Source: Candidatus Nomurabacteria bacterium (GTDB taxonomy: Bacteria; Patescibacteriota; Minisyncoccia; Phycocordibacterales; UBA9973). Taken from it: a stretch of 64,000 bases of DNA. The stretch spans positions 207,665 to 271,664 of the forward strand of contig CAWHSF010000003.1 in assembly GCA_963832025.1 (NCBI GenBank). Direction: 5' to 3'. The notes under the pieces are model-generated. The model was not told the origin of the DNA. It was given only the letters and a program-made list of their open reading frames with translations, and ran no database searches. Each line of letters starts with the position of its first letter. Positions within the stretch are counted from its first letter, which is position 1. The position numbers and the translations under genes are program-made. This document shows, one piece after another, positions 1 to 61,259 of the stretch.

Positions 1-623
1 GCAGCACAAGAATTTATACCAATTAAAGAAGTCCGCGATGGAATAATCGTGTTAAAAAACGACGAGCTGCGGGCGATCGTTTTGGCCAATTCAATCAATC
101 TTTCCTTAAAATCAAACGATGAACAACAGGCAACTATTTTGCAATTTCAAAATTTTCTCAACACCTTGGATTTTCCAATACAAATATCGGTTCAGTCAAG
201 AAGACTGGATATTAGACCGTATCTTTTGCTTTTAGAAGATAGACTTAAGGTGCAAAGTGAGCCATTACTTAAACTGCAAACAAAAGAATACATAGAGTTC
301 ATTAAAAATTTTACTGACTACTGTGGCGATAATGACTAAAAGTTTTTTTGTGGTAGTGCCTTATACCCATACAACTTTAAAATCAGATTCTGGAATTTTT
401 GGAAGTTTTTTCTCTAAAAAGAGTAAAGAACAAACACAAGCAATGGCAGCAAGTTGATTTTGAAGAAAAAAGATCACAATTGGAGGAGAGAGTTGCTGTC
501 ATCCAGCAGGGTCTCGGGCGTTGTGGAATAAATTCTGCTCAGCTGGGAACCGAAGAAGTCGTGGAAGTTTTTTATAAAGTTTTCAATCCGGGAGAAGTTG
601 AAGGAAAAATAAAAGTTGAATAA
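1..623 (+). pseudogene. VirB4/TrbE-like ATPase, N-terminal region split over three reading frames (1-339, 302-457, 399-623)
   Basis: Open from base 1 (AAQEFIPIKEVRDGIIVLKND...). It continues as ...MTKSFFVVVPYTHT... in the +1 frame, then ...EERVAVIQQGLGRCGINSAQLGTEEVVEVFYKVFNP in the next +1 frame. Contiguous with the ATPase ORF at 616. Confidence 0.5.
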
Positions 624-2478
624 AAATATGATGGAATTTTTTAAAAAATTATTTGGTAAGAAAACATCCGCCAAAAAAGACGAGGCACAAATTTCCACTT
701 TGGCGGTTTTACCGGAAGAAATTTACAAATCTGCCAACCTGGAACTCCAGGATATCATTGCGCCATCAGCCTTAAAAATTGAATCTAAATCAATAAATTT
801 GGGCGAAAAAATTGCTCGCACTTTTTTTATCATATCTTATCCGAGATTTTTGAATGATAATTGGTTTTCTCCGATAATAAACTTGGATAAAGTTTTTGAT
901 ATTGCGATTTTTATCCATCCGATAGACACCTCGCTCATGCTCCGACAATTTCAAAAAAAGGTGGCCGAAGTGCAAAGCCAGATAAGCGTGCGTGAAACAA
1001 AAGGCATGGTACGTGACCCGATGCTTGATACCGCCTACCAAGACTTGGAAGGCCTGCGTGACAACTTAATTCAAGCGCAAGAAAAAATGTTTGATGTCGG
1101 TGTTTACATCACAATTTATGCGGACAACGAAATGGAACTTTTCAAAATTGAAAATGAAATAAAATCAATGTTGGAATCAAAGCTTATTTACATCAAACCA
1201 GCGCTTTTCCAACAAGAAGAAGGTTTTAAAAGTGTCATTCCGACAGAAACAGACTTATTGAACATTCATCAAAAATTAAATTCAGAGCCGCTTTCCAGTG
1301 TTTTTCCATTCATTTCTTCCGACCTGACTTCCGACAAAGGAATACTTTACGGTATCAACCGAACAAATTCCAGTTTGGTTATTTTTGATAGATTTTCCTT
1401 GGAAAACTACAATTCCGTAACCTTTGCCAAGTCCGGTTCTGGAAAATCTTATGCGACAAAATTGGAAATATTGAGGTCTTTGATGTTTGATACTGACGTC
1501 ATTGTGATAGACCCGGAAAGGGAATACGAATTTTTGGCTGAAGCTGTGGGCGGAAGATATTTTAATATTTCTCTTTCTTCGGAACACCACATCAATCCTT
1601 TTGATTTGCCGATGCCCCGCGAAGACGAAACAGCTGAAGATGTGTTACGTTCAAATATAATAAATTTGGTTGGACTTTTGCGTTTGATGTTGGGTGGACT
1701 CACTCCAGAAGAAGATTCCATGGTGGACCGAGCCATTTCGGAAACTTATGCGATGAAAGATATTACTCCGGAATCAGATTTTTCAAATATTGATCCTCCG
1801 CTTCTTTCCGATTTTGAAATGGTACTTTCCGGAATGGACGGAAGTGATTCCGTGGTGCAAAGACTGGTGAAATATACACGTGGCTCTTGGGCAACATTTT
1901 TAAACAGACCATCCAACGTAGACATTAATAAAAAATTCGTGGTATTTTCCGTTCGCGACATGGAAGACGAATTAAAACCAGTTGCCATGTATATCGTCAT
2001 GCATTATATTTGGACCGAGGTACGCAAAAATCTAAAAAAGCGTTTGCTCGTAGTGGATGAAGCTTGGTGGATGATGAAATCTGAAGACACCGCATCATTT
2101 TTGTATTCCATCGCCAAAAGAGGCAGAAAATATTATCTCGGCCTTTCCACCATCACCCAAGATGCGGCTGATTTTATGAAATCTCCATACGGAGTACCGA
2201 TAATCACCAACTCTTCTATCCAGCTTTTGTTAAAACAATCACCAACCACAATCGATATCTTGCAAAAAACTTTCAATCTGACGGATGAAGAAAAATATTT
2301 GCTTTTGGAGTCAAATGTTGGGGAAGGAATATTTTTTGCCGGACTAAAACACGTCGCGATAAAAATAATTGCTTCTTATACCGAAGACCAAATTATTACT
2401 TCCGACCCTTCTCAAATATTATCGAATAGAAAAGCTAAACAAGAACAGGAAGTAGCCGAAGAAGGGGGTAAGGTTTAA
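616..2478 (+). CDS. virB4: VirB4-like type IV secretion/conjugation ATPase (ATPase portion)
   Basis: 620-aa ORF; Walker A AKSGSGKSYATK; Walker B LLVVDEAWW; VirB4-like middle region YPRFLNDNWFSPII. Confidence 0.75.
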   Translation: MNKNMMEFFKKLFGKKTSAKKDEAQISTLAVLPEEIYKSANLELQDIIAPSALKIESKSINLGEKIARTFFIISYPRFLNDNWFSPIINLDKVFDIAIFIHPIDTSLMLRQFQKKVAEVQSQISVRETKGMVRDPMLDTAYQDLEGLRDNLIQAQEKMFDVGVYITIYADNEMELFKIENEIKSMLESKLIYIKPALFQQEEGFKSVIPTETDLLNIHQKLNSEPLSSVFPFISSDLTSDKGILYGINRTNSSLVIFDRFSLENYNSVTFAKSGSGKSYATKLEILRSLMFDTDVIVIDPEREYEFLAEAVGGRYFNISLSSEHHINPFDLPMPREDETAEDVLRSNIINLVGLLRLMLGGLTPEEDSMVDRAISETYAMKDITPESDFSNIDPPLLSDFEMVLSGMDGSDSVVQRLVKYTRGSWATFLNRPSNVDINKKFVVFSVRDMEDELKPVAMYIVMHYIWTEVRKNLKKRLLVVDEAWWMMKSEDTASFLYSIAKRGRKYYLGLSTITQDAADFMKSPYGVPIITNSSIQLLLKQSPTTIDILQKTFNLTDEEKYLLLESNVGEGIFFAGLKHVAIKIIASYTEDQIITSDPSQILSNRKAKQEQEVAEEGGKV

Positions 2479-2516
2479 TTGTAAGGTTCATAGAGTAGAA
2501 AGTCGCAAAGCTTGTA

Positions 2517-2525
2517 TGGTATAAT
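2517..2525 (+). promoter_or_regulatory. extended -10 box TGgTATAAT, 6 nt before ATG 2532 (leaderless-type)
   Basis: tatggtataat-taaatt-ATG read directly. Confidence 0.55.
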
Positions 2526-2531
2526 TAAATT

Positions 2532-3523
2532 ATGAAATTTAGGTTTCTATTACTGCTTTTAGTTACAATAATCATAACAACAGGTGTTATTTCACCGTTT
2601 AAAGTAAGTGCTTCTTCCCCCAGTGATGTTAGTATATCCACCGTTCCAGAAAACCCAGCTCCAAATCAAAATGTAACTATCACATTGAGCAGTTATGTAG
2701 ATGATTTGGATAGTGTTTTAATAACTTGGACTGTAAACGGAAAAAATTCTAGTTCGGGAATCGGCGATAAATCTTTTTCTTTAATCGCTCCAGCTTTGGG
2801 GCAAAAAACGACAGTCATAGCTACCATTTCTTTATCTGATGGAGATTTAAATGAAACGATACCGATAACCCCAGCAATAATGACCATGCTTTGGCAGGCA
2901 AATGATTCTTATGTGCCGCCTTTTTACGAGGGAAAAGCTTTGCCGTCACCGGACAGTGAAATAAAAGTTGTGGCTATGCCGGAAATAAAAAATGGTTCCA
3001 GTTTTGTCAATCCCACAAATATGACTTATGATTGGCAACTAGATGAAAACAATCGATGCGGACAATTCCGGTTATGGGAAAAATTCTTATATTTATGTAA
3101 GTGATTATTTGGATAATTCAAACAATGTTAGCGTGACAGCTTCTACTTTAGACCAACAAGACTTCAGTGGATGGAAGCTTAAATGTAGCAACCGTAAATC
3201 CAAAAATAGATTTTTATAAAGATGACCCAACTTTGGGAACTGTTTGGGAGAAGCAGTTTCAGATGGTATCAAGATTACGGGAAATGAAATTATTACAAGC
3301 TGCTCCATATTTCATATCACCAAAAGAGTTTAAGAATTCCTTTTTTGACATGGACCTGGTCTTTGAATGGAGCAACAGATTGCCGTGTCATCTTATAGTA
3401 GTAACATTATTGCCACTACAACTGCAAAACGGCATTCATGGAACATCTCAAATAGGCCTAGAGGTGAGCAATATTCACAGCTTGGTCAACACAGCCAGCA
3501 AGGAAATTAATGTAAATTTTTAA
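2532..3523 (+). pseudogene. secreted protein with signal peptide, interrupted by two +1 frame changes (2532-3104, ~3051-3219, 3167-3523)
   Basis: N-terminal signal peptide MKFRFLLLLLVTIIITTG. The sequence continues as IDADNSGYGKNSYIYVSDYLDNSNNVSVTASTLDQQDF in the +1 frame, then (V)DGSLNVATVNPKIDFYKDDP in the next +1 frame. Confidence 0.45.
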
Positions 3524-3529
3524 CATGAG

Positions 3530-3609
3530 TCCCGTTAGAAGTAACTTCTAATAATAACAATGTAATGATAAAAAACTATAAACAAAATAAAATAACTTCT
3601 AACGGGATG
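3530..3609 (+). repeat. intercistronic hairpin cassette, family G copy 3 (3' arm ends on ATG 3607)
   Basis: Left arm TCCCGTTAGAAGT (3530-3542). Proximal complement ACTTCTAA (3544-3551). Distal perfect complement ACTTCTAACGGGA (3595-3607), followed by TG. Confidence 0.7.
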
Positions 3610-4752
3610 AAAAAACTTTTATCGTACTTAATAATATTCATTGCGCTGGTCGCGATATTTGGCCCAACAATAAGAGTAAATGCACAGACATGCAATATGA
3701 ATGGTTATGATGGTAGCCCTACGGGAGCGTGTGATTATGGTGGCACCCCTGACTATACTGATTTTCAATCCACCCAAACTGAATGTAATGCTCAAATTGC
3801 CGCCAAGGATGCAGTATCTTTTATTCCTGACACATATGGGGTATGTACTATAAATGGTTCAGCAAATGCATGTTGGACAAAAACATCCTGTATACAAAAT
3901 AAGGGAACTTTTGCCGGTTACTATAATTTGTTACAGCCCCTTCCTGGAGTAGGCGCAACGTTTAATCCCATAAGCACTCCTGGTCAGCCAACTAGCTTGA
4001 GTAGCTACTTAAACCCAATGATAAATATTTTCATTGGTATTTGCGCAGTATTGGCTGTGATAATGATCTTAATGGGTGGAATTGAATACATGACAAGTGA
4101 ATTAATCTCAAGCAAAGAAGCAGGAAAGGAAAGAATAAGGAATGCTCTGCTTGGGCTTCTCTTGGCCCTCGGTGCTTGGAGTATTCTTAATACAATAAAT
4201 CCTAACTTACTTAAGTCTGATGTAAGTATTCCAGATGCAAATGTAACTACAAATATAACAGCGCAAAATTTTGCAAACTCTCCCTCAACGTACATTGTTC
4301 CTCTTGGCCAAACAGGAAAAACAAGTGGTACAAACTGTGATGAAAATGCAATTTCTACATCTAATCAAACGGCAAGCTCCGGTCTTAATAGTTCCCAGAT
4401 ACAGACACTTGCTTGTATAGGTGGGATAGAAAGCGGTTGTAACTCAGTCGTAAACTACAACTGGAATAATGGATCCTCTGCATATGGGCCTTTCCAGATA
4501 ACATTACAAACAAATGCTGGTTGTTTTGAAAATAGTGTTTGTCAGCAAGCAGCTGGAGTAAGTGGACCCCTTAATTGTGCCGCTGGATTCCATAATGGAA
4601 ATCCCATACCGGGTTCTCTAATTGTGGCACAATGCATGAAGGCTGCTGATAATTTTACCTGTAGTGTAGCTGCTGCCGCGTGTTTAATAAAACAGAACCC
4701 GAACTATAGCGACTGGAACGCAAACGGCAATCTTTCAAAATGCACATCATAA
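3607..4752 (+). CDS. T4SS-pilin-like protein (two hydrophobic helices) with Cys-rich N-terminal part and lytic-transglycosylase-like C-terminal region
   Basis: Signal peptide MKKLLSYLIIFIALVA. TrbC/VirB2-style hairpin IFIGICAVLAVIMILMGGIEYMTSE...ALLGLLLALGAWSILNTINPNL. The C-terminus has E-S...YGPFQI, resembling the SLT catalytic motif. The longest ORF starts at 3565; start 3607 is preferred. Confidence 0.55.
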   Translation: MKKLLSYLIIFIALVAIFGPTIRVNAQTCNMNGYDGSPTGACDYGGTPDYTDFQSTQTECNAQIAAKDAVSFIPDTYGVCTINGSANACWTKTSCIQNKGTFAGYYNLLQPLPGVGATFNPISTPGQPTSLSSYLNPMINIFIGICAVLAVIMILMGGIEYMTSELISSKEAGKERIRNALLGLLLALGAWSILNTINPNLLKSDVSIPDANVTTNITAQNFANSPSTYIVPLGQTGKTSGTNCDENAISTSNQTASSGLNSSQIQTLACIGGIESGCNSVVNYNWNNGSSAYGPFQITLQTNAGCFENSVCQQAAGVSGPLNCAAGFHNGNPIPGSLIVAQCMKAADNFTCSVAAAACLIKQNPNYSDWNANGNLSKCTS

Positions 4753-8285: not shown

Positions 8286-9626
8286 ATGAATACGAAACAA
8301 CTTTGGAAAAATTGCTTAGCGGAAATCGAAACTGGTATATCAAAAGCAAATTTCAGCACTTGGTTTAAAAACACCTCTATTGTAAGAGAAGATACCGGCA
8401 TTATCTATATTGGAGTACCAAATGAGTTCGTTCGTGACTGGCTAATGAATAAATACCACAAACTTATCACCAAAACCATCGCGGATGAATACGAAAATAT
8501 GCGCGCCGTGGAATATACGATTTCTAAAATAGAAAACCTGAGCCAAGAAGTAACCATCACGAAAGAAACTATTGAAAAAGAACTGCCCTTGAAGGATTTA
8601 TACATTAATCCAGAAGATAATTTAAACCCACGCTACCATTTCAATTCTTTTATCGTGGGAACTTTCAACGAACTTGCCTATGCAGCGGCACAAGCAATCA
8701 TAGAATCTCCCGGAACTAAATATAACCCGTTCTTCATTTACGGAGGCACCGGATTGGGGAAAACTCACCTGATTCAAGCGGTTGGGAACTCCATCAAAGA
8801 AAAATATCCAAATAAAAAAGTTCATTATATGACCTTGGAAAAATTTGCGACAGATTTTATAAATTCTCTGCAAAACAACAAAGCAAACTCCTTTAAAGAA
8901 AAATATCGCAAATACGACCTTTTAATCATAGATGACATTCAATTTATCGGGAAAATGGAAAAAATCCAAGAGGAACTTTTCCACACATTCAACACTTTTT
9001 ACGAAAACAACAAACAAATTATTTTTTCTTCCGACAAACACCCCAATTACATTCCGGAGTTGGCCGATCGTTTAAAATCTCGTTTTGCCGCCGGTATGAT
9101 TGTAGACATTTCGGAACCGGAATATGAGTCTCGTTTAGCAATCTTGAAAGTGAAACTGCGAGAACAAAACATTGAATTAGAAGAAGAACTTGTTGAATAT
9201 GTCGCAAGCTCCGTGCAGGGAAATATTCGCGAGCTAGAGGGGAGTTTAAATCTTATCGTTTGCCAATATCGCTTGAAAAATAAGCCTCTAACGCTCCTCG
9301 AGGTGAAAAACTTGTTAAAAAACAACATGAAACCCAAAAAGAATATGGCCATCAAAGATGTTGTAAAAATTGTGAGTGAATATTATAAACTTGAAGAACT
9401 CTCTGTTTATGAAAAGACTAGAAAAAAAGAAATAGTTAAGGCTAGGCAGATTGTGATGTATCTGCTCCGAGAAGACTTTAATGTTTCTTATCCTTTGATT
9501 GGACAAAAGCTAGGAGGGAAAGACCATACCACGGTTATACACTCTTGTTTAAAAATTAAAAAAGATTTAAAGAACGACCCACAACTTTTGCAAGAACTGG
9601 AACAAATAAGGATAATGTTCAAATAG
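8286..9626 (+). CDS. dnaA: chromosomal replication initiator DnaA
   Basis: 446 aa; AAA+ Walker A GGTGLGKTHL; C-terminal DNA-binding domain (...GGKDHTTVIHS...). Confidence 0.95.
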   Translation: MNTKQLWKNCLAEIETGISKANFSTWFKNTSIVREDTGIIYIGVPNEFVRDWLMNKYHKLITKTIADEYENMRAVEYTISKIENLSQEVTITKETIEKELPLKDLYINPEDNLNPRYHFNSFIVGTFNELAYAAAQAIIESPGTKYNPFFIYGGTGLGKTHLIQAVGNSIKEKYPNKKVHYMTLEKFATDFINSLQNNKANSFKEKYRKYDLLIIDDIQFIGKMEKIQEELFHTFNTFYENNKQIIFSSDKHPNYIPELADRLKSRFAAGMIVDISEPEYESRLAILKVKLREQNIELEEELVEYVASSVQGNIRELEGSLNLIVCQYRLKNKPLTLLEVKNLLKNNMKPKKNMAIKDVVKIVSEYYKLEELSVYEKTRKKEIVKARQIVMYLLREDFNVSYPLIGQKLGGKDHTTVIHSCLKIKKDLKNDPQLLQELEQIRIMFK

Positions 9627-9841
9627 ATTTGGTAACTTGTTGAAAAGATGTTAAAGAAAATTGATAAGAAGTGATTTTAAAATTTAAAAATTTTTAAAGA
9701 CAAAACAAATAAAAGTTATTAGACCCAGAATAAAAATAAAAAACAAAAAAACCCCTAATAAATATTACTAATTAAAGTATTCCACTTATCAACAGAACTA
9801 ATATTATTAATAATTTATATATAAAAGATATAAACAAATAT
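9627..9841. other. AT-rich dnaA-dnaN spacer, putative DNA unwinding element / oriC segment
   Basis: 215 bp, almost entirely A/T. DnaA-box-like TTATCAACA at 9786-9794, adjacent to TATTCCACT. Confidence 0.45.
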
Positions 9842-10939
9842 ATGAAACTAGAATGTTCAATTGAAAAAATTAAAAACGCGGTTGCTCAAGTGGAAAGAAT
9901 AACCGGGAAAAATTTAACCTTACCAATACTTAGTTCGGTTTTACTTATTGCATCTTTAAAATCTTTAAAGTTAAGGTCTACGAACTTAAGTCTTGGTATT
10001 GAAATAGAAATTCCCGCAAAAATAGATCGTGAAGGGACCCTGGCTATTTCTGGTTCGGTTTTAAATTCAATTTTTTCAAATGTTTCCCAAAATGAAAATG
10101 TAAATTTAGAAGAAAAGGATGGAAATTTACTTATTAAAACAAATAAGACTCAAATAAGACTCAAAAGTCAGCCCCATGAAGATTTTCCGACAATCCCGAC
10201 GGTAAACGGAACCAGTTTTGAAATAGAATCAAAAAAATTAATCGATGGGATAAAATCGGTTTATTACAGCTCTTCTGTTTCAGACATAAAACCGGAAATT
10301 TCAAGTGTTTTTATTTATACAAATAATGACAACCTGGTTTTTGTCTCTACAGACTCTTTCAGATTAGCGGAAAAGAAAATTAAAACTAAAGGAGTTCCCG
10401 AAATTTTGGGCATCCTTATTCCCTTTAAAAACATTACCGAAATATTAAAGATTTTTGGCGAACTTCAAGGTTTAATAAAAGTTTGTTTCAATAAAAACCA
10501 AATTTCTTTTTCCACGGAAAATATTTATTTAACTTCCAGGGTAATTGATGGAATTTTCCCGGACTACCGTCAAATTATTCCCAAAAATTTTACCACGGAA
10601 ATTGTTGTTCTAAAGCAAGACTTGCTAAATGCGCTTAAACTTTCGAATATATTTTCTGACAAATTCAACCAAGTTAATCTCAAGGTTCTTCCAAAAGAAA
10701 AGATTTTTGAGCTTTCTTCAGCAAACAACGATATTGGAGAAAACAAAACTTATTTAGATGCGGTGATAAAAGGAGAAAACATTGAATTAGGCTTCAATTA
10801 TAAATACTTTTGGGATTGTTTCGTTTCTATTACTACCGACAGTGTTTCTATAAGATTATCCGGAAGTGGCAAACCAATAGTTGTTTCTCCTGTTTCTGAC
10901 CCATTATTTACTTATCTCATCATGCCGATGAATAAATAA
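9842..10939 (+). CDS. dnaN: DNA polymerase III beta sliding clamp
   Basis: 365-aa ORF immediately after dnaA; clamp-like length and C-terminus (...YLIMPMN). Confidence 0.9.
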   Translation: MKLECSIEKIKNAVAQVERITGKNLTLPILSSVLLIASLKSLKLRSTNLSLGIEIEIPAKIDREGTLAISGSVLNSIFSNVSQNENVNLEEKDGNLLIKTNKTQIRLKSQPHEDFPTIPTVNGTSFEIESKKLIDGIKSVYYSSSVSDIKPEISSVFIYTNNDNLVFVSTDSFRLAEKKIKTKGVPEILGILIPFKNITEILKIFGELQGLIKVCFNKNQISFSTENIYLTSRVIDGIFPDYRQIIPKNFTTEIVVLKQDLLNALKLSNIFSDKFNQVNLKVLPKEKIFELSSANNDIGENKTYLDAVIKGENIELGFNYKYFWDCFVSITTDSVSIRLSGSGKPIVVSPVSDPLFTYLIMPMNK

Positions 10940-19992: not shown

Positions 19993-22434
19993 ATGAAAAC
20001 GGAAAATAAAAATTCAACTAAAACAATGGTCCTATTAGATGCTCACGCGATAATACATCGCGCCTATCATGCGTTGCCGGAGTTTTTATCATCCAGCGGT
20101 GAACCTACTGGCGCTCTGTACGGGCTTTCCAGCATGTTGATGAAAATTATCACCGAACTCAAACCGGACTATATTGCTGCTTGTTATGATTTGCCGCAAA
20201 AAACTTTTCGTCACGAAGCTTATGATGCCTACAAAGCTGGCCGGGCAAAAACAGATGAAGCACTGGTGGTGCAACTAAAAAAATCCAGACAAATTTTTGA
20301 AGCTTTCAACATACCTATTTATGATGCCCCTGGTTTCGAGGCGGATGATGTTTTGGGAACAATCGTTGAAAAATATAAAAAAGACAAAAGCATCAATATC
20401 ATTATCGCTTCTGGAGACATGGATACGATGCAGTTGGTTGATGATAAGAAAGTTCAAGTTTACACTCTAAAAAAAGGAATCAATGAAACCATTTTATATG
20501 ACGAAGATGCAGTAATGGAACGTTTCCATTTCAAACCGAAACTTTTGCCGGACTACAAAGGTTTGCGTGGCGACCCATCGGATAACATTATTGGCATAAA
20601 AGGCATTGGAGAAAAAACAGCGGAAAATTTAATTGTCAATTTTGGAACCATCGAGGAAATATATAAAAAAATAAAAAAAGACAAAGAAGCTTTCGTGAAA
20701 GCAAACATAAGCCTCAGAATAATTGAATTATTGAAAGAGAACGAAGAGGAAGCTCTGTTTTCAAAAACATTAGCGACCATTCGCAAAGATGCGCCGATAA
20801 ATTTTACATTACCGGCAAAAACTTTTTGGGAAAACATTGACTCTAAAAAAGTGGAACAAGTTTTCATGGATTTTGAGTTTAAAAGTTTGATGGCTCGCTT
20901 GAAGAATTTTTTTAGCGAGAATTCGACGGGTGTTGCTCAGAGGAGTCTTCGCAACGACCAGAAAGAACTTGCCCTTCCAGGACGGGGTGCGAACGACGGC
21001 GAGCAATATCCACCGAATTCTCAAATCATTAATCCTCAAAAGTTGCAAGAAGCCAGCATTGTTCTTTGGCTCATCAATTCCGATATTTCTACTCCTGGCT
21101 TAGAAGATATGTATTTCTTTGCAAAGACTGAGTCTTTTGATGTGGCTTATGAGTACATTTTTAAACAGCTAAAAGAAAGAAAGTTAGATAAAGTATATGA
21201 AGAAATCGAAAAACCGATTATTGGTGTCGTAAAAAAGATGGAAGATTTTGGAATTCTGATAGATAAAAAATATTTTGAAAAATTATCTCTTGAATACCAC
21301 AAAGAATTGGATATTTTGACCAAAAACATTTACAAAATGGCTGGAACAGAATTTAATATTAATTCTCCAAAACAGCTAGGCGAAATTCTTTTTGGTAAGC
21401 TTGGCATGAAATCTGGTAAGAAAAAAAGTGCCAATGGTAGTTTTTCCACCAAGGTTTCCATTCTGGAAGACCTTGCCGAAGAAAATGAAATTATTAAAGA
21501 AATTTTAGCTTACAGAGAGTTACAGAAATTGCTTTCTACCTACGTTGATGTCATTCCAAAAATGGCAGGGCCAGATGGACGACTGCATTCAAAATTTATA
21601 CAAAATGCCACTACAACTGGCAGGTTTTCTTCAATTGACCCAAACTTGCAAAATTTACCAATTAAAACAGAATTAGGTAGAAGAATCCGTGGTGGTTTCG
21701 TAGCTTCCAAAAATCATAAGCTAGCAGCTTTTGATTATAGCCAAATTGAATTACGGGTGGCAGCGATACTTTCCGGAGACAAAAACATGACTGAAATATT
21801 CCGTGACCGCAAAGACATTCATGCCGGAGTCGCCTCTTTTGTTTTTGGTGTGCCGATAGAGCGTGTTGATAGTGAAATGCGTCGCCGAGCAAAAGTCATC
21901 AACTTTGGCATTATTTACGGCATGGGGGTTTCTGCCTTACGAAAAAATCTGGGAGGTACCCGTGAAGAAGCGCAAAAATTTTACGATAATTATTTTAATC
22001 AATTTTCTGGAGTGCGAGATTATTTAGAAAGCGTGAAAATGTTTGCTGCTAAAAATTCCTTTACAGAGACATTGTTTGGTCGTAGGCGTTACTTCCCAAA
22101 TATCAATTCCCGAATTCCTTTTTTGAAAAACACGGCTGAACGTACTGCGACCAATGCTCCACTGCAAGGCACAGCCGCTGATATTATCAAACTTGCTATC
22201 AGATACGCTGAAGAAGATTTAAATAAAAAAGGATTGCTTTCGAAAGTTCATCTCGTGCTTCAAATCCATGATGAACTGGTTTACGAAATAGAAGATGATG
22301 TTTTAGAAGAGGCTGATAAAATAATAAAGCAGGCGATGGAAGAGGTGCTAGAAAGATCATATTTGCATTACAAAACAGACATTCCTTTACTGGTTCGCTC
22401 TGGTTTTGGTGACAATTTTGGGGAAGTAAAATAA
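19993..22434 (+). CDS. polA: DNA polymerase I (5' nuclease + polymerase domains)
   Basis: 5'-nuclease N-terminus (LLDAHAIIHRAYHAL); polymerase motifs DYSQIELRV and QIHDELV. The ORF is open from 19828, but ATG 19993 follows tsaE. Confidence 0.9.
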   Translation: MKTENKNSTKTMVLLDAHAIIHRAYHALPEFLSSSGEPTGALYGLSSMLMKIITELKPDYIAACYDLPQKTFRHEAYDAYKAGRAKTDEALVVQLKKSRQIFEAFNIPIYDAPGFEADDVLGTIVEKYKKDKSINIIIASGDMDTMQLVDDKKVQVYTLKKGINETILYDEDAVMERFHFKPKLLPDYKGLRGDPSDNIIGIKGIGEKTAENLIVNFGTIEEIYKKIKKDKEAFVKANISLRIIELLKENEEEALFSKTLATIRKDAPINFTLPAKTFWENIDSKKVEQVFMDFEFKSLMARLKNFFSENSTGVAQRSLRNDQKELALPGRGANDGEQYPPNSQIINPQKLQEASIVLWLINSDISTPGLEDMYFFAKTESFDVAYEYIFKQLKERKLDKVYEEIEKPIIGVVKKMEDFGILIDKKYFEKLSLEYHKELDILTKNIYKMAGTEFNINSPKQLGEILFGKLGMKSGKKKSANGSFSTKVSILEDLAEENEIIKEILAYRELQKLLSTYVDVIPKMAGPDGRLHSKFIQNATTTGRFSSIDPNLQNLPIKTELGRRIRGGFVASKNHKLAAFDYSQIELRVAAILSGDKNMTEIFRDRKDIHAGVASFVFGVPIERVDSEMRRRAKVINFGIIYGMGVSALRKNLGGTREEAQKFYDNYFNQFSGVRDYLESVKMFAAKNSFTETLFGRRRYFPNINSRIPFLKNTAERTATNAPLQGTAADIIKLAIRYAEEDLNKKGLLSKVHLVLQIHDELVYEIEDDVLEEADKIIKQAMEEVLERSYLHYKTDIPLLVRSGFGDNFGEVK
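20917..21022 (+). repeat. family A palindrome-ended repeat, in-frame inside polA
   Basis: TIR GAGAATTCG...CGAATTCTC. The core matches the reverse complement of 24739-24830. Confidence 0.8.
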
Positions 22435-23699: not shown

Positions 23700-25949
23700 A
23701 TGCAAAAAAATATTTTTAAATTAAAGAATTTATGGGAACCAGCGGGGGATCAGCCGAAGGCTATTTCTAAGCTGGTAGAAGGTTTAGAGAAGGGAATGAA
23801 GAAACAAACATTGTTGGGCGCAACCGGAACTGGCAAAACTTTTACCATGGCCAATGTCATTGCGCAGTACAACAAACCGACGCTCGTAATAGCTCACAAC
23901 AAAACTCTGGCTGCCCAGCTCGCGCAAGAATTTCGCCAGTTTTTCCCCGATGCGGCCGTGCATTATTTTGTTTCTTATTATGACTATTATCAACCGGAAG
24001 CATATATGCCTGCTTCGGATACTTATATCGAAAAAGATGCTTCCATCAATAAAGAAATAGATATGCTTCGTCACGCCAGCACACAAGCATTACTTACCAG
24101 GCGTGACGTGATTATCGTCGCTTCGGTTTCCTGTATTTATGGGCTGGGTTCTCCCGAAGAATATGAAAAAGTAAATTTAAAACTTGAACTTGGCATGAAA
24201 CTGGACCGCATGACTTTAATGAGAAAACTGATTGAGATTCATTTTGAAAGAACCAACGCGGATTTGAGTCCAGGGCAATTTCGTTCGATTGGTTCGCGAG
24301 TGGAATTTATGCCGGTGTCGGAGACTGTCATGTATCAAATAGAATTTGGAACGTCGGACCTTAAGGGGATTCAAGGTCCGACGTTAACAAAAATAATCAA
24401 AGTTGATCCGGTATCCTCGAAAATAATCGAAGAAATAAAACCCGCCGAAGGACGGGCAGGCATTTTCATTTTTCCGGCAAAACATTTTATTACTGAAGAA
24501 GTAAAAAAGCAAAAGGCATTGATTGAAATTAAAAAAGAATTAAATAAACAATTGAAAAAATTTGAAAAAGAAGGAAAGTTGCTCGAAGCTGAGCGTATTA
24601 AGAGAAGAACAAACTATGACCTAGCGATGATTCGCGAAGTTGGTTATTGCAACGGCATCGAAAATTATTCTCGGCATCTGTCGGGTAAATTGGAAGGTGA
24701 ACCGCCAGAAACTCTGCTTTCATATTTTCCGCATAGGGCTCGAGATTATTCTCGCCGTCGTTCGCACTCCGTCCTGGAAGGGCAAGAAAGTTCTGGTCGC
24801 AACGAAGACTCCTCTGAGAACAATCTCGAACCCGATTTCCTTACGATTATAGATGAATCGCATGTTACACTTCCGCAACTGCAAGGCATGTATGCCGGAG
24901 ATGCTTCCAGAAAAGAAACCCTAGTAGAATATGGATTCAGATTGCCATCAGCTAAGGACAACAGACCCCTTAAATTTAATGAATTTGAAGAAAGAATAAA
25001 TAATGTAATTTATACTTCTGCCACACCTGGAGAATTTGAAAGATCTAATAGTAATCAAACAGTAGAACAGATAATCAGACCCACTGGTTTGGTTGATCCA
25101 GAAATAGAAGTAAAGTCGGTAAGCGAAAAAGAAGATTACAAGGGCCAAATTCAAGATTTTATTTTTGAGACAGAAAAAACAATCAAAAAAGGTTTCCGCG
25201 TTTTAGCGACCACCCTCACAAAAAAAATGGCGGAGGACCTCTCAACATATTTGAAGGATAAAAAAATCAAAGCGGAATATTTACATAGTGATATAAAAAC
25301 AATGGAACGAATAAAAATTCTCACTCAGTTTAGAAAAGGAGAATTTGATGTTTTGGTTGGAGTAAACTTACTTCGCGAGGGACTTGATTTACCTGAAGTT
25401 GCTTTAATCGGTATTTTAGATGCTGATAAATCCGGATTTTTACGTTCGGAAACAGCGCTAGTGCAAACCATCGGTCGCGCAGCCAGAAATAGCGAAGGAA
25501 AAGTTATTCTATATGCGGACATCATGACTCCGGCCATGGAATATGCTATTTCCGAAACTACTCGCCGGAGAAATATTCAGCTTGCTTATAATAAAAAACA
25601 TGGTATCACTCCGAAGACAATTATGAAAAAGATAAATGACATTACCGAAGAGTTGGAAAGTGAACATGGGAAAACAGTGAATGCGGAATTAAACCTTGAT
25701 TTGGAAGTTTTCAAACGAGCTTACGCCAAAGAGTTAAAATTAGACAAAAGTAAACTAACAAAAAAGAATGGACTAACTGAAGTTAAATTACACATGTCCG
25801 ACGAAGAGAGAAGCAACTTAGTCTATGAAAAAATAATAAAAATCAAGGAAAAAGAAATGAGTAAAGCAGTTAAAGAATTGGATTTCGAAACCGCAGCGAT
25901 TCTGCGTGATGAAATTGGAGTTTTGAAATTACGTTTGGAGAAAAAATAA
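23700..25949 (+). CDS. uvrB: excinuclease ABC subunit B
   Basis: GATGTGKTF; DESHVTLPQ; helicase C motifs; C-terminal UVR domain (FETAAILRDEI). Carries three inserted repeat segments. Confidence 0.95.
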   Translation: MQKNIFKLKNLWEPAGDQPKAISKLVEGLEKGMKKQTLLGATGTGKTFTMANVIAQYNKPTLVIAHNKTLAAQLAQEFRQFFPDAAVHYFVSYYDYYQPEAYMPASDTYIEKDASINKEIDMLRHASTQALLTRRDVIIVASVSCIYGLGSPEEYEKVNLKLELGMKLDRMTLMRKLIEIHFERTNADLSPGQFRSIGSRVEFMPVSETVMYQIEFGTSDLKGIQGPTLTKIIKVDPVSSKIIEEIKPAEGRAGIFIFPAKHFITEEVKKQKALIEIKKELNKQLKKFEKEGKLLEAERIKRRTNYDLAMIREVGYCNGIENYSRHLSGKLEGEPPETLLSYFPHRARDYSRRRSHSVLEGQESSGRNEDSSENNLEPDFLTIIDESHVTLPQLQGMYAGDASRKETLVEYGFRLPSAKDNRPLKFNEFEERINNVIYTSATPGEFERSNSNQTVEQIIRPTGLVDPEIEVKSVSEKEDYKGQIQDFIFETEKTIKKGFRVLATTLTKKMAEDLSTYLKDKKIKAEYLHSDIKTMERIKILTQFRKGEFDVLVGVNLLREGLDLPEVALIGILDADKSGFLRSETALVQTIGRAARNSEGKVILYADIMTPAMEYAISETTRRRNIQLAYNKKHGITPKTIMKKINDITEELESEHGKTVNAELNLDLEVFKRAYAKELKLDKSKLTKKNGLTEVKLHMSDEERSNLVYEKIIKIKEKEMSKAVKELDFETAAILRDEIGVLKLRLEKK
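24350..24385. repeat. 36-bp perfect hairpin in-frame inside uvrB
   Basis: AACGTCGGACCTT-aaggggattc-AAGGTCCGACGTT (13-bp perfect arms); encodes GTSDLKGIQGPT. Confidence 0.7.
24441..24460. repeat. short GC-rich hairpin in-frame inside uvrB
   Basis: CCCGccgaaggaCGGGcagg encodes PAEGRAG; shares its terminal CGGGCAGG with the yebC insert. Confidence 0.35.
24739..24830 (-). repeat. family A palindrome-ended repeat, in-frame inside uvrB (inverted relative to polA copy)
   Basis: TIR CTCGAGATT...AATCTCGAA. Encodes ...RARDYSRRRSHSVLEGQESSGRNEDSSENNLEP between conserved YFP and DFLTIIDESH. Confidence 0.8.
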
Positions 25950-45034: not shown

Positions 45035-48000
45035 TTATTCTTGTACTGTTGTTGTGGTAGTTTTCTTTCCGAGAGGTTGATGATCTACAACAGTGGTAGT
45101 TCTTTTGATAAAAGGAGCTGTGGGCGGTGGAAGATATGCTGGATTTATTTTTCTTTGTCCGTAAATATATTTTGCTAACAATATCAATATAAGAATAAGT
45201 ATGATTATGATAAGCCAACCAAATATATTTGTCGGGAAGAAGCCAGCTCCGAAAGCGAATGCTCCAAGAGGGGAGGTCGTTCCGGTTGTTGCACTCCATA
45301 CTTGAGCGGAAACATTCGCATTGACTGATTGAGAATTACCGGAAGGGTCAACATAGTTTAAGGTTGCAGGGAAGTTGAGCAATGTGCCTGCGGTTGCGTC
45401 GCTGTTTACCTGTGTTTTTACTGTTACCACACCGGAAGCTCCTCCTCTAAGTGTTCCCAAGTTGAATACCAAAGTATTTCCGAGAACATTAGGATTGATT
45501 GGGTTCGATGAAAGATAAGTTACTTCTTGTGGCAACACTAACTGCAAACTTAGATTGGTAGCAGATCCTGTTCCGACATTTTGATAATTTATAGTGTAAT
45601 TAATTTCATCTCCTGGGTGTGGTCTGGTGTTGTCAATTGTAGGAACAATCGGTTGGTCTCTATTTACCGAAGAAGTAATAAGAAGAAGTGAACTTGCAGC
45701 TGTCCTGTTTACATATCTGATTACTGTCGTCGGACTCTGTGCCCCAGTTGTGGTAAAGCTTAATATATAACCATTACTACTTTGATAGGAATCTTGCGCA
45801 ATTGCTCGGAAGTAATAAGTTGTTCCAGGGCTTAATCCACTCAATGTGTCTGTGTGTATAACCGATGGCAATGTTCCGACAGCTGTGGTTGTAGTCGTAT
45901 TTCCCAAATTTATAGTTGGGCCCCACTCAAACCAAGCATTTATTGGGCTGGAATCAGAACTGCTAATTAAGGAGTTCAATTGTGCACTGGTGCTTAATAC
46001 TTGTGTTGCTTGCGTGGTGACGACACTTAGATTGCTTGCTATTGGTTGTGGATATATTGGTGTTGGAACGGGATATACCGGAACTATTGGTTGATAGTTT
46101 TGATTTACATAAACAGTGGTTGAACCAGTCGCTTGCTGTCCGGTGCTACTAGTACAAACAATATTGTAAGTAGTTGTATAAGTTAGAGCTCCAGTAGTTA
46201 TACTGCCGGAAGTACTTTGTGTTCCGGAAAGTCCATTGTAACCACCAGTAATACTACAATAACTTGCGTTAGTTGAGTTCCAAGAAATAATACTGGAACC
46301 ATTATAGTTGACACTGGAAGGATTTGCGTAAATGTTGACGGTAGGTTGCAAAATTTGATTTTGATTTACATAAACAGTGGTTGAACCAGTCGCTTGCTGT
46401 CCGGTGCTACTAGTACAAACAATATTGTAAGTAGTTGTATAAGTTAGAGCTCCAGTAGTTATACTGCCGGAAGTACTTTGTGTTCCGGAAAGTCCATTGT
46501 AACCACCAGTAATACTACAATAACTTGCGTTAGTTGAGTTCCAAGAAATAATACTGGAACCATTGTAGTTGACACTGGAAGGATTTGCGTAAATGTTGAC
46601 GGTAGGAATCTGGTTTTGAATTTGATTTACCGACACCGTCGCTGAAGCACTTACTTGTGTTCCATTGGTTCCATAACAAGTAATTGAATAGGTTGTAGTT
46701 CCACTTGGTACTACAACTCCGGAACCACTAGTTGCTGTACTGGAAGTCCAGTAAGCCTGACAAGATGTTGCGTTATTTGAACTCCAAGTAAGTGTAGAGT
46801 TTGCTCCGGATTGGATGGAAGTTGGGTTGGCGTAAAGAGAAACGGTTGGGTTTTGATATTGAATCTGATTTACCGACACCGTCGCTGAAGCACTTACTTG
46901 TGTTCCATTGGTTCCATAACAAGTAATTGAATAGGTTGTAGTTCCACTTGGTACTACAACTCCGGAACCACTAGTTGCTGTACTGGAAGTCCAGTAAGCC
47001 TGACAAGATGTTGCGTTATTTGAACTCCAAGTAAGTGTAGAGTTTGCTCCGGATTGGATGGAAGTTGGGTTGGCGTAAAGAGAAACGGTTGGGTTTTGAT
47101 ATTGAATCTGATTTACCGACACCGTCGCTGAAGCACTTACTTGTGTTCCATTGGTTCCATAACAAGTAATTGAATAGGTTGTAGTTCCACTTGGTACTAC
47201 AACTCCGGAACCACTAGTTGCTGTACTGGAAGTCCAGTAAGCCTGACAAGATGTTGCGTTATTTGAACTCCAAGTAAGTGTAGAGTTTGCTCCGGATTGG
47301 ATGGAAGTTGGGTTGGCGTAAAGAGAAACGGTTGGGTTTTGATATTGAATCTGATTTACCGACACCGTCGCTGAAGCACTTACTTGTGTTCCATTGGTTC
47401 CATAACAAGTAATTGAATAGGTTGTAGTTCCACTTGGTACTACAACTCCGGAACCACTAGTTGCTGTACTGGAAGTCCAGTAAGCCTGACAAGATGTTGC
47501 GTTATTTGAACTCCAAGTAAGTGTAGAGTTTGCTCCGGATTGGATGGAAGTTGGGTTGGCGTAAAGAGAAACGGTTGGGTTTTGAATCTGTTGCGCTGCT
47601 ACTGTTACCGTCGCATATGCGGAAGCTTGTGCTCCGGTACTGCTGGTACAAGTAAGATTGTAAGAAGTTGTATTAGCTAAAGCTCCAGTATTAAAACTAC
47701 CGGAAGTATTTTGATTTCCTCCCCAACCATTTGTACCACCACTTGCGATGCAAGATGTTGCGTTGGTGGAATTCCAAGTTAAGATACTTGTTCCATTGTA
47801 AGCTACGGAAGTTGGATTAGCGGAAAGAGAAACTGTCGGCTGAACCTGACCACTCACTGACACCGTCGCATAGGCGGAAGCTTGTGCTCCGGTACTGCTG
47901 GTACAAGTAAGATTGTAAGAAGTTGTATTAGCTAAAGCTCCAGTATTAAAACTACCGGAAGTATTTTGATTTCCTCCCCAACCATTTGTACCACCACTTG

Positions 48001-53514: not shown

Positions 53515-53551
53515 CTTGTCCGACAATGGAGAATTTTTGTTGTCGGACAAG
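53515..53551 (+). repeat. family H palindromic repeat after the second efflux operon (possible terminator)
   Basis: CTTGTCCGACAA-tggagaattttt-gTTGTCGGACAAG (12-bp perfect arms). Confidence 0.65.
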
Positions 53552-60869: not shown

Positions 60870-60941
60870 CCCTCGTAGTTCAATGGATAGAACAGAGCTC
60901 TTCTAAGGCTTCGATGTAGGTTCGATTCCTACCGAGGGCAC
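60870..60941 (+). tRNA. tRNA-Arg (anticodon UCU)
   Basis: Acceptor GCCCTCG/CGAGGGC; anticodon loop CTTCTAA; T-arm GTAGG-TTCGATT-CCTAC. Confidence 0.9.
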
Positions 60942-61259
60942 AAAAATAAGCGGAGCATATTTTTGTGCCCGAGAGCGAGCAAACTGCTTTGCTCGCGGGT
61001 AGGAAGCGAAAAGCTTTTCATTAATAGCGAGAAATTTATTTCGAGCTATTTGAAAAGGTATACTGTTCCCGTAGGGAAAGATATCCTACCGAGGGCACAA
61101 AAATAAGCGGAGCATATTTTTGTGCCCGAGAGCGAGCAAACTGCTTTGCTCGCGGGTAGGAAGCGAAAAGCTTTTCATTAATAGCGAGAAATTTATTTCG
61201 AGCTATTTGAAAAGGTATACTGTTCCCGTAGGGAAAGATATCCTACCGAGGGCACAAAT
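60929..61259 (+). repeat. 2 x 157-bp direct tandem repeat, each unit starting with the last 13 nt of tRNA-Arg(UCU)
   Basis: CCTACCGAGGGCACAAA occurs at 60929, 61086 and 61243. The intervening 157-bp units read identical. Confidence 0.9.

What the first reader, a model, noticed from the sequence alone, without database searches (positions are those of the whole stretch)
24350..24385. 36-bp perfect hairpin (12 codons) embedded in uvrB
AACGTCGGACCTT-aaggggattc-AAGGTCCGACGTT has 13-bp perfect arms and is much more GC-rich than the surrounding gene. It adds GTSDLKGIQGPT inside the beta-hairpin/domain 2 region. A second short GC hairpin (24441-24460, CCCGccgaaggaCGGGcagg) follows 55 nt later. A perfect 13-bp palindrome is not expected inside coding sequence by chance.
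Basis: seen in the sequence. Interest (0 to 1): 0.65.

Follow-up and report, generated by a model that had tools for sequence, protein, structure and literature searches.

The report
In-frame 36-bp palindromic repeat in uvrB
The hairpin in uvrB is real: it is one copy of an apparently undescribed family of 36-bp perfect palindromes found in Patescibacteria (CPR bacteria), mostly in frame inside DNA-repair and other housekeeping genes, and it resembles the palindromic elements known from Rickettsia.

Summary
The 13-bp/10-nt/13-bp hairpin at 24350-24385 is confirmed. About 0.08 such hairpins are expected per window. It is the only one deep inside a gene.

It is not peculiar to this uvrB. One pattern scan of 185,579 species genomes gave 48 matches, all in Patescibacteria MAGs. 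They lie in uvrA/B/C/D, topA, ligA, recJ, smc, tRNA synthetases, secA, atpD and other genes, and 8 are intergenic.

- **Arms:** they stay strictly complementary through changes on both arms, with almost no one-sided changes.
- **Reading frame:** intragenic copies always use a stop-free frame, usually xRSDLKGxQGPTx.
- **Sequence tracks genome:** copies in one genome resemble each other more than copies at the same site in different genomes.
- **Site history:** the closest uvrB relatives lack the insert, and at least 8 gains or losses are needed at this site.
- **Protein context:** in the model the insert is a low-confidence loop between two strands of UvrB domain 2, not the beta-hairpin.

The best reading is a selfish REP/RPE-like mini-palindrome that is translated and kept only at permissive loops. 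The mobilising enzyme is unknown. The second "hairpin" (24441-24460) is not significant as a structure.

This is a new member of a known kind. The concentration in excision-repair genes is unexplained.

The parts
24350..24385 (+). Complete 36-bp palindromic element, exactly 12 codons long. It starts at the third base of Gly217 and is read as (G)TSDLKGIQGPT(L).
   Evidence: A covariance model built from 25 other copies, without the window copy, scores it at 48.3 bits, E = 4.7e-12, and it is the only significant match in the window.
24350..24362 (+). Left arm, AACGTCGGACCTT.
   Evidence: It pairs perfectly with the right arm.
24363..24372 (+). 10-nt loop, AAGGGGATTC. The family consensus is AAGGGAGCCC.
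24373..24385 (+). Right arm, AAGGTCCGACGTT.
23700..25949 (+). Host gene uvrB (749 aa). The element sits in domain 2, between predicted strands 211-216 and 228-235.
   Evidence: PDB UvrB matches, E about 1e-224; AlphaFold: coil at 217-227, pLDDT below 50 at 221-224.
24438..24461 (+). Separate sporadic 6-residue insertion (IKPAEGRAG). It is not a member of the 36-bp family and is not a significant hairpin.
24735..24835 (-). Context: a different in-frame GC-rich element (34 residues, aa 345-378) at uvrB 'site 2'. Some other genomes carry the 36-bp family at this same site.
20917..21022 (+). Context: a copy of the same roughly 100-nt element in polA, in the opposite orientation to the uvrB copy.
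26509..26600 (+). Context: a roughly 92-nt in-frame palindromic element in uvrA, of the same family as 29195-29286 in uvrC.
29195..29286 (+). Context: a roughly 92-nt in-frame palindromic element in uvrC with 25-nt perfect arms.

Best explanation
The hairpin is one copy of a dispersed family of 36-bp perfect palindromes that, in the one scan made, turned up only in Patescibacteria (CPR bacteria). Each copy has 13-bp arms around a GTCNGAC core and a 10-nt loop, AAGGGNNNNC.

The most likely account is a selfish, non-autonomous mini-element of the REP/RPE kind. It is copied to new places within a genome. It persists inside essential genes only under three conditions. It adds a whole number of codons (the window copy adds a net 24 nt). 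It is read in a stop-free frame (usually xRSDLKGxQGPTx). It lands in a surface loop that tolerates extra residues.

In this window it is translated as an extra loop at the tip of a beta-hairpin in UvrB domain 2.

The arms are probably kept complementary at the DNA level. Either the copying step rebuilds one arm from the other, or mismatches in the extruded hairpin are corrected.

Shown here: family membership, dispersal, covariation of the arms, frame constraint, patchy presence at the site, and loop location.

Inferred only: that the element is selfish and without function, that it is currently mobile, and the enzyme. By analogy with REP elements and their RAYT transposases, I suggest a transposase that acts on single-stranded DNA hairpins, and I give that part about 0.25.
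For: - **Dispersal.** The pattern GTCNNACCTYAAGGGNNNNCRAGGTNNGAC has a chance expectation of about 0.3 matches in 596 Gb (my estimate from the number of specified bases). It gave 48 matches in 45 stretches, all in Patescibacteria MAGs, and several genomes have 2-4 copies on different contigs.
- **Hosts.** They include UvrA/B/C/D, TopA, LigA, RecJ, SMC, LeuRS, ValRS, PheT, AlaRS, Tgt, SecA, AtpD, Alr and others. Eight copies are intergenic, between complete unrelated genes.
- **Arms.** 39 of 49 unique copies are perfect, and 626 of 637 pairs are Watson-Crick. Positions 1-3 lie outside the search pattern and are complementary in 146 of 147 cases. In 25 copies, 7 of 13 pairs change on both sides, one cell changes on one side only, and 0 of 500 shuffles reach the observed covariation.
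- **Membership.** A model built without the window copy scores it at 48.3 bits, E = 5e-12.
- **Translation.** All 41 intragenic copies use stop-free frames, 34 of the 38 in long ORFs use one frame, and none splits a gene.
- **Gain at this site.** The closest relatives (85-87% identity, P0002-P0004) lack the insert. Thirteen of 120 relatives carry it, which needs at least 8 state changes on a UPGMA tree. Empty sites all have the ancestral length.
- **Sequence tracks genome, not site.** Copies in one genome differ by a mean of 2.8 of 36 positions. Copies at the same site in different genomes differ by 5.5, and random pairs by 5.6 (permutation p < 1e-4).
- **Hot spots are shared.** Unrelated palindromic insert families use the same sites, which points to protein tolerance rather than target recognition.
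- **Loop position.** AlphaFold gives coil at 217-227 with low pLDDT.
Against: - No transposase or nuclease was identified.
- No clean junctions or target-site duplications were found. The net length change varies between lineages: +8, +12 and +14 residues, and more where the copy is nested.
- Few copies were seen per genome, and only one in this 64-kb window. Current mobility in this genome is therefore not shown.
- Similarity of copies within a genome could come from gene conversion rather than transposition.
- A purely neutral selfish model predicts neither the strong bias to one reading frame nor the share of copies in excision-repair genes, which I estimate at more than 30 times what their length predicts (18 of 48).
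- The search pattern was derived from uvrB and uvrA copies, which could inflate that enrichment.
Confidence: 0.8

Rival explanations
1. The hairpin is a selected cis-acting structure in uvrB mRNA or DNA, for example a ribosome pause site, an RNase site or a protein-binding site that regulates uvrB.
For: The stem is very stable, and pairing is maintained by changes on both arms. Of the 11 mismatches in the family, 7 are G:T on the loop-sense strand against 2 A:C. That is a weak hint of tolerance at the RNA level.
Against: It is absent from the closest uvrB relatives and from most of the 120 relatives. The same element occurs in more than 20 unrelated genes and in intergenic DNA, in both orientations. 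No Rfam family matches. The G:C to C:G swap in the window copy cannot pass through a wobble intermediate.
Confidence: 0.05
2. The element has been taken over for its peptide. The RSDLKGxQGPT loop would then be a useful protein module, such as an interaction, modification or cleavage motif added to repair and replication proteins.
For: 34 of the 38 copies in long ORFs use this one frame although four frames are open. Copies are concentrated in excision-repair and other DNA-metabolism proteins. The peptide lies on an exposed loop.
Against: The peptide changes wherever the arms co-vary (SDL/GPT, SNL/GST, SDL/GLT), so the DNA pairing is conserved, not the residues. Other frames and intergenic copies also exist. 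Presence is patchy even among close relatives. The window copy has lost the leading Arg.
Confidence: 0.1
3. The insertion is ancient and has evolved in concert. A few old insertions were inherited vertically, repeatedly and precisely lost, and homogenised within genomes by gene conversion, with no ongoing transposition.
For: Copies within a genome are more alike than orthologous copies. The window copy and L002 share the same right junction, which suggests shared descent. Palindromes are known to be prone to deletion (general knowledge).
Against: Empty sites have exactly the ancestral length, also seen in Bacillus UvrB, whereas filled sites have variable flanks. At least 8 state changes are needed among 120 UvrB sequences. 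Many host genes and sites are specific to one lineage. Intergenic copies exist.
Confidence: 0.15
4. The palindrome arose locally, by template switching that turned a quasi-palindrome at this site into a perfect one, independently in each gene.
For: Template switching can make imperfect palindromes perfect (general knowledge). Nested and extended palindromes occur at the same site in L002, L048 and L085.
Against: The same arms and the same 10-nt loop recur at unrelated sites and in unrelated genomes, which local origin cannot explain.
Confidence: 0.03
5. The hairpin is an assembly or library artefact, such as a hairpin adapter or a chimera.
For: None specific. The window has two single-A frameshifts, in uvrA and uvrC, that may be sequencing errors.
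Against: The element is in frame, at the same codon position, with compensatory variants, in dozens of independent assemblies from different projects.
Confidence: 0.01

Closest known systems
Rickettsia palindromic elements (RPEs; Ogata et al. 2000, as summarised in PMC10969869)
   Same: Dispersed palindromic repeats inserted in frame into unrelated housekeeping genes and translated. They are thought to be compatible with protein fold, are patchy among relatives, and are viewed as selfish DNA.
   Different: RPEs are about 100-150 bp, imperfect and found in Alphaproteobacteria. This element is 36 bp with perfect 13-bp arms and was found only in Patescibacteria. The roughly 92-100-nt elements in polA, uvrB, uvrA and uvrC of this window resemble RPEs in size more closely.
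Intragenic REPs of the GTAG/CGTC super-families (Di Nocera et al. 2013, PMC3733652)
   Same: Palindromic repeats of 20-40 bp. Some lie inside genes, notably uvrA, uvrB, uvrD, polA, DNA ligase and tRNA synthetases, which are the same host categories as here. CGTC REPs have no known dedicated transposase.
   Different: Those REPs carry an unpaired GTAG or CGTC head and a short tail. CGTC families have 8-9-bp stems and 4-5-nt loops, are mostly extragenic and often form dimers. This family has 13-bp stems, a 10-nt loop and no unpaired tag, and about 80% of copies are intragenic. The CGTC in the window copy lies inside the stem and is specific to that copy.
REP elements with their RAYT (IS200/IS605-like Y1) transposases
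   Same: A plausible analogy for the mechanism: short hairpins recognised as single-stranded DNA and mobilised in trans.
   Different: No RAYT or other transposase was looked for genome-wide or found, and no REPtron arrangement was seen. This comparison is inference only.
Mobile GC clusters and double-hairpin elements of fungal mitochondria (recalled from memory, not tested)
   Same: Small GC-rich palindromes in AT-rich genomes. They are optional between strains and occasionally lie in frame inside a coding gene (var1).
   Different: They are organellar, have different sequences, and reportedly have target-site preferences. No comparison was run here.
MITEs
   Same: Non-autonomous short repeats with inverted termini that can fuse in frame with ORFs.
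   Different: MITEs are usually longer than 50 bp, with terminal inverted repeats around an internal segment and target-site duplications. Here the whole element is the hairpin, and no duplication was detectable.

Membership tests
36-bp Patescibacteria palindrome family (defined here) | 13-bp complementary arms with a GTCNGAC core, plus a 10-nt loop AAGGGNNNNC | tested here: met
   The window copy matches the scan pattern. Model R2, built from 25 other copies, scores it at 48.3 bits, E = 4.7e-12.
36-bp Patescibacteria palindrome family (defined here) | In frame, read as xRSDLKGxQGPTx, with hairpin base 1 at codon position 3 | tested here: met
   The window copy uses the same codon phase as 34 of the 38 copies in long ORFs. 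Its peptide is GTSDLKGIQGPTL.
36-bp Patescibacteria palindrome family (defined here) | More than one copy per genome | tested here: inconclusive
   Only one copy lies in the 64-kb window, and the rest of this genome was not available. Other genomes have 2-4 copies in the fragments seen.
REP, CGTC super-family (Di Nocera 2013) | Unpaired CGTC (or TGTC/CCTC) head at one end and a short CCA-like tail | tested here: not met
   The family consensus starts AAGGTC, and that stretch is paired. The window's CGTC lies within the stem.
REP, CGTC super-family (Di Nocera 2013) | Stem of 8-9 bp and loop of 4-5 nt | tested here: not met
   The stem is 13 bp and the loop 10 nt in all copies.
REP (general) | Palindromic repeat of 20-40 bp, dispersed in the genome | tested here: met
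   The element is 36 bp and occurs at many loci.
REP (general) | Predominantly extragenic | tested here: not met
   41 of 49 unique copies are intragenic and 8 are intergenic.
REP (general) | Association with a RAYT (Y1) transposase gene | not tested
   Whole genomes could not be scanned. Pfam scans covered 31 of the roughly 60 window ORFs (uvrB itself only against PDB and precomputed Pfam) and found no transposase among them.
Rickettsia palindromic elements | Palindromic repeat inserted in frame into ORFs and translated | tested here: met
   Only stop-free frames are used, and no gene is split. Translation itself is inferred, not observed.
Rickettsia palindromic elements | Length of about 100-150 bp and sequence similarity to RPE families | tested here: not met
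   The length is 36 bp. Sequence similarity to RPEs was not tested, and no Rfam or other known family matched.
MITE | Terminal inverted repeats plus target-site duplication | tested here: inconclusive
   Comparisons of filled and empty sites show no consistent duplication, and flanks vary.

The most novel reading that the evidence does not exclude
The family may be more than tolerated junk. Under this reading, an as yet unknown machinery in CPR bacteria that acts on DNA hairpins (or a transposase-free, hairpin-templated copying process) keeps the arms perfect, homogenises copies within each genome, and repeatedly places them at the same codons of excision-repair and other DNA-metabolism genes. 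The element, or its RSDLKGxQGPT loop, would then modulate the host's repair system. Such a link between small palindromic repeats and repair genes could also explain the same bias reported for REPs in other phyla.
Probability: 0.12. Interest if true: 0.8.

Novelty: new member of a known kind. Interest (0 to 1): 0.55.

Why it matters
CPR bacteria (Patescibacteria) have tiny genomes and are thought to be highly streamlined. Even so, their core repair and replication genes carry several families of palindromic in-frame inserts.

The 36-bp family is short and well defined, and it has three useful properties. Its arm covariation is strict Watson-Crick. Its reading frame is constrained. Its copies track the genome rather than the site. 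Together these make it a good system for asking how mini-palindromes spread and stay perfect.

There are practical consequences too. Such inserts lengthen and diversify conserved marker proteins. They can mislead alignments, phylogenies and structure predictions for CPR proteins.

The marked concentration in uvrA/B/C/D echoes an unexplained observation made in 2013 for REPs in other phyla, and these data make it testable.

Tried and rejected
- **Source contig.** Looking up the window's UvrB to reach the rest of the genome returned no record, and the cluster look-up gave no name. Copy number in this genome remains unknown.
- **Viral contigs.** The family pattern gave 0 matches.
- **Rfam.** There were no hits at gathering thresholds. 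At permissive thresholds only generic hairpin or miRNA models appeared, far below their cut-offs.
- **Second hairpin as a dispersed family.** The sequence 24438-24461 was found only at the orthologous uvrB site, in L028, and it is not significant as a fold. I dropped it as a structure.
- **Excision footprint in uvrA.** I wondered whether the window's 'LSDKNKK' was a remnant, because L017 reads 'LRSDLKNSQGLTLKK'. Seventeen loci share the same 7-residue empty state, so it is ancestral. Rejected.
- **CGTC-tagged REP.** The window copy contains CGTC, but the defining unpaired tag, stem length and loop length are not met. Rejected.
- **Target-site duplication or consensus.** Flanks are heterogeneous, apart from a frequent TGGG/GGGG on the right and a sub-family with GGCGGAAA...TGGGAGCC flanks. 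No conclusion.
- **Direct repeat of a self-palindromic 13-mer.** Each arm is nearly self-palindromic, but the variants (window copy, L088, L104, L110, L015a) preserve pairing between arms, not symmetry within an arm. Rejected as the main constraint.
- **Tree building.** The first attempt, with Biopython neighbour-joining, timed out and was replaced by UPGMA with Fitch parsimony.
- **Literature.** Searches for this phenomenon in Patescibacteria/CPR found nothing relevant.
Full report
**Observation.** The window reads AACGTCGGACCTT-aaggggattc-AAGGTCCGACGTT at 24350-24385. This lies inside a 749-aa ORF, 23700..25949, that is unmistakably UvrB: its matches to solved UvrB structures have E about 1e-224.
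- A perfect hairpin with a 13-bp stem and a 3-20-nt loop is expected 0.08 times per 64 kb in first-order Markov simulations. The window has nine. Going by the ORF list, the other eight lie in gaps between genes or at gene ends, and this is the only one deep inside a coding sequence.
- As single-stranded DNA it folds at -14.1 kcal/mol, with z = -6.4.
- The hairpin is 52.8% GC (counted), against 37.8% for the window.
- Compared with solved UvrBs and with insert-free relatives, the net gain is 8 residues.
- The site is in domain 2, the UvrA-interaction domain, because 3fpn_B aligns to query residues 149-264. It is not the beta-hairpin.
- The second 'hairpin' at 24441-24460 is not significant as a structure (z = -0.8). 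It does coincide with another sporadic 6-residue insertion.

**Organism and relatives.** The closest UvrB proteins that carry a source name are labelled Paceibacterota, Pacebacteria, Nomurabacteria or Patescibacteria. In an alignment of 120 relatives, the closest ones (85-87% identity, P0002-P0004) lack the insert. About 13 scattered sequences carry a similar peptide at exactly this position, either RSDLKGxQGPT or RSNLKGAQGST.
- On a UPGMA tree the character needs at least 8 changes.
- The nearest neighbour of most insert-bearing sequences lacks the insert. For example, P0081 and P0117 differ at 5.7% of residues, and P0015 and P0020 at 4.9%.
- All empty sites have the same length, which is also that of Bacillus UvrB. 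Filled sites differ in their flanks: +8, +12 and +14 residues, and more where the copy is nested.

The empty state is therefore ancestral, and the site has been filled repeatedly.

**It is a dispersed repeat.** The DNA of 80 related uvrB loci showed the same hairpin at other places.
- L015 has three copies within 2.6 kb: uvrB site 1, a second uvrB site after '...YFP', and uvrA. All three have the loop aagggagccc, and their arms differ by paired changes.
- One pattern scan of one genome for each of 185,579 species has a chance expectation of about 0.3 matches by my estimate. It returned 48 matches in 45 stretches. All are Patescibacteria MAGs (Paceibacterota, Kaiser-, Nomura- and Gottesmanbacteria, Minisyncoccia, and some labelled Saccharibacteria). 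Several genomes have 2-4 copies on separate contigs. Viral contigs gave none.
- Hosts confirmed by Pfam are TopA, LigA, LeuRS, ValRS, PheT, AlaRS, Alr, UvrA, UvrC, UvrD, Tgt, RecJ, AtpD, SMC, SecA, a tyrosine recombinase, a glycosyltransferase, a methyltransferase, an FAD oxidase and an HhH-GPD glycosylase. UvrB is occupied at three distinct sites.
- Eight copies are truly intergenic, lying between complete unrelated genes.
- A covariance model built from 25 copies, without the window copy, finds the window hairpin at 48.3 bits, E = 4.7e-12. It is the only significant hit in the 64 kb.

**Anatomy and constraints.**
- *Arms.* Of 49 unique copies, 39 have perfect arms, and 626 of 637 pairs are Watson-Crick. 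Positions 1-3 lay outside the search pattern and are complementary in 146 of 147 cases. In the 25-copy alignment, 7 of 13 pairs show changes on both sides, one cell changes on one side only, and no shuffle reaches the observed covariation.
- *What is preserved.* Each arm is itself nearly palindromic. Even so, the variants (window copy, L088, L104, L110, L015a) preserve pairing between the arms, not symmetry within an arm.
- *The window copy.* It carries a G:C to C:G swap at position 3/34. That change cannot pass through a wobble intermediate. This favours maintenance at the DNA level, by copying one arm from the other or by correcting mismatches in the hairpin, over selection on an RNA helix. 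This step is inference.
- *Reading frame.* Two of the six possible frames contain TAA, and neither is ever the host frame. 34 of the 38 copies in long ORFs use the frame xRSDLKGxQGPTx, four use an antisense frame, and no copy splits a gene. The element is therefore read through by the ribosome. The strong preference for one of the four open frames is not explained.

**Copies track the genome, not the site.** Copies at different sites in one genome differ by a mean of 2.8 of 36 positions. Copies at the same site in different genomes differ by 5.5, no better than random pairs at 5.6 (permutation p < 1e-4). So either each genome's copies descend from a recent genome-specific source, or they are homogenised by gene conversion. 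Both are active processes at the level of the family.

**Hot spots.** The uvrA site after 'ALNVFL' is empty in 17 loci, including this window. Elsewhere it is filled by at least six unrelated palindromic insert families, including the 36-bp family and a 60-nt hairpin family that also occupies uvrB site 1 in other lineages. Because unrelated elements share the same sites, site choice is best explained by what the protein tolerates, not by target recognition.

AlphaFold has only moderate confidence overall (mean pLDDT 67). It places the window insert as coil at 217-227 between strands 211-216 and 228-235, with pLDDT below 50 at 221-224.

**Enrichment in repair genes.** In the genome scan, 18 of 48 copies lie in uvrA/B/C/D and 27 of 48 in DNA-metabolism genes. 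I estimate that the excision-repair genes make up about 1-2% of these genomes. Within this window, all the long in-frame palindromic inserts, which belong to other families, also sit in the polA-uvrB-uvrA-uvrC cluster.
- Caveats: the pattern was derived from uvrB and uvrA copies, orthologous copies are not independent, and these genes are neighbours, so local spread is possible.
- Di Nocera et al. (PMC3733652) reported the same tendency for intragenic REPs in Rickettsia, Opitutus and others. No explanation is established. Relaxed selection on excision repair is one candidate. uvrA and uvrC of this window each carry a single-A frameshift, which may be real or may be a sequencing error.

**Comparison with known systems.** The closest known kinds are the Rickettsia palindromic elements and the intragenic REPs of the GTAG/CGTC super-families.
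- RPEs are translated in frame in housekeeping genes but are 100-150 bp long.
- Those REPs are 20-40 bp and sit in the same host gene categories. They carry an unpaired tag, and the CGTC families have 8-9-bp stems and 4-5-nt loops. They are mostly extragenic.
- This family fails the defining tag and geometry of the CGTC and GTAG families and is far shorter than RPEs. It is therefore not a member of either, but it behaves like both.
- No paper on such elements in Patescibacteria was found, and no Rfam family matches.

**Verdict.** The hairpin is a copy of a new family of a known kind of element: small palindromic repeats that live in frame inside genes. It is most probably selfish and tolerated as a surface loop of UvrB. 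The mobilising mechanism, the frame bias and the preference for repair genes remain open.

Noticed in passing
window 20917-21022 (polA) and 24735-24835 (uvrB aa 345-378): The same roughly 70-100-nt GC-rich element is inserted in frame in both genes, in opposite orientations. The core is about 90% identical. The uvrB copy is predicted to be disordered.
   Followed up: partly
window 26509-26600 (uvrA), 29195-29286 and 29614-29701 (uvrC): Three roughly 90-nt in-frame palindromic elements with 22-25-nt arms. The uvrA copy and the first uvrC copy belong to one family. All the long in-frame palindromic inserts of the window lie in the polA-uvrB-uvrA-uvrC cluster.
   Followed up: partly
window about 26283 (uvrA) and about 29806 (uvrC): Each gene is split by one extra A in a short A-run. 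uvrA reads CTTAAATCAAATG where CTTAATCAAATG is expected, and uvrC reads AAGAATCAG where AAGATCAG is expected. The rest of each protein continues in the next frame. This is either real decay of excision repair or homopolymer errors in the assembly.
   Followed up: partly
window 24438-24461: A 6-residue insertion (IKPAEGRAG) is shared sporadically by some relatives as IKPAKGRAG. Other GC-rich inserts sit at the same spot in other lineages, so this is another variable hot spot in UvrB domain 2.
   Followed up: partly
L002 3650-3712 and L048 430-492 (uvrB site 1): A nested palindrome. The outer arms AGGTCGGAC...GTCCGACCT belong to the 36-bp family. They enclose a second 13-bp/14-nt/13-bp hairpin, AAGGACGGTCCTT...AAGGACCGTCCTT, in place of the usual loop. 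L002 shares the window copy's right junction.
   Followed up: partly
L035 6409-6470, L052 6311-6366, L058 6208-6253, L040 4158-4211; proteins P0026, P0064, P0065: A second dispersed hairpin family of about 60 nt, with 12-20-bp perfect arms ending in ...GACCTAGGG or ...GACCTCGGG and a 22-nt A-rich loop. It encodes ...DLGANSKKQKSLG... and occupies both the uvrA hot spot and uvrB site 1 in other lineages.
   Followed up: partly
L089 / L092 (ValRS, same site): Two species carry the element at the same ValRS position with identical arms but the loop in opposite orientation. This is either an in-place flip of the loop or independent insertion in both orientations.
   Followed up: no
L126 6547-7945: A diversity-generating retroelement (bAvd plus a reverse transcriptase) lies about 1.2 kb downstream of uvrB in a close relative.
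   Followed up: no
window 8286-10939 and 616-4752: dnaA and dnaN are present, so the window is probably near the replication origin. A TraG-like ATPase and a type IV secretion pilin gene lie upstream.
   Followed up: no
window 60936-60970 and 61093-61127; 46785-47386: Two identical 13-bp-stem hairpins lie 157 nt apart downstream of tRNA genes. Three 243-nt tandem repeats lie inside the 1310-aa ORF 45035-48967.
   Followed up: no
window 53515-53551: A perfect 12-bp hairpin, CTTGTCCGACAA...TTGTCGGACAAG, lies between convergent genes. It shares a GTCCGAC core with the 36-bp family but scores only 10.8 bits with the family model, so it is probably an unrelated terminator.
   Followed up: partly
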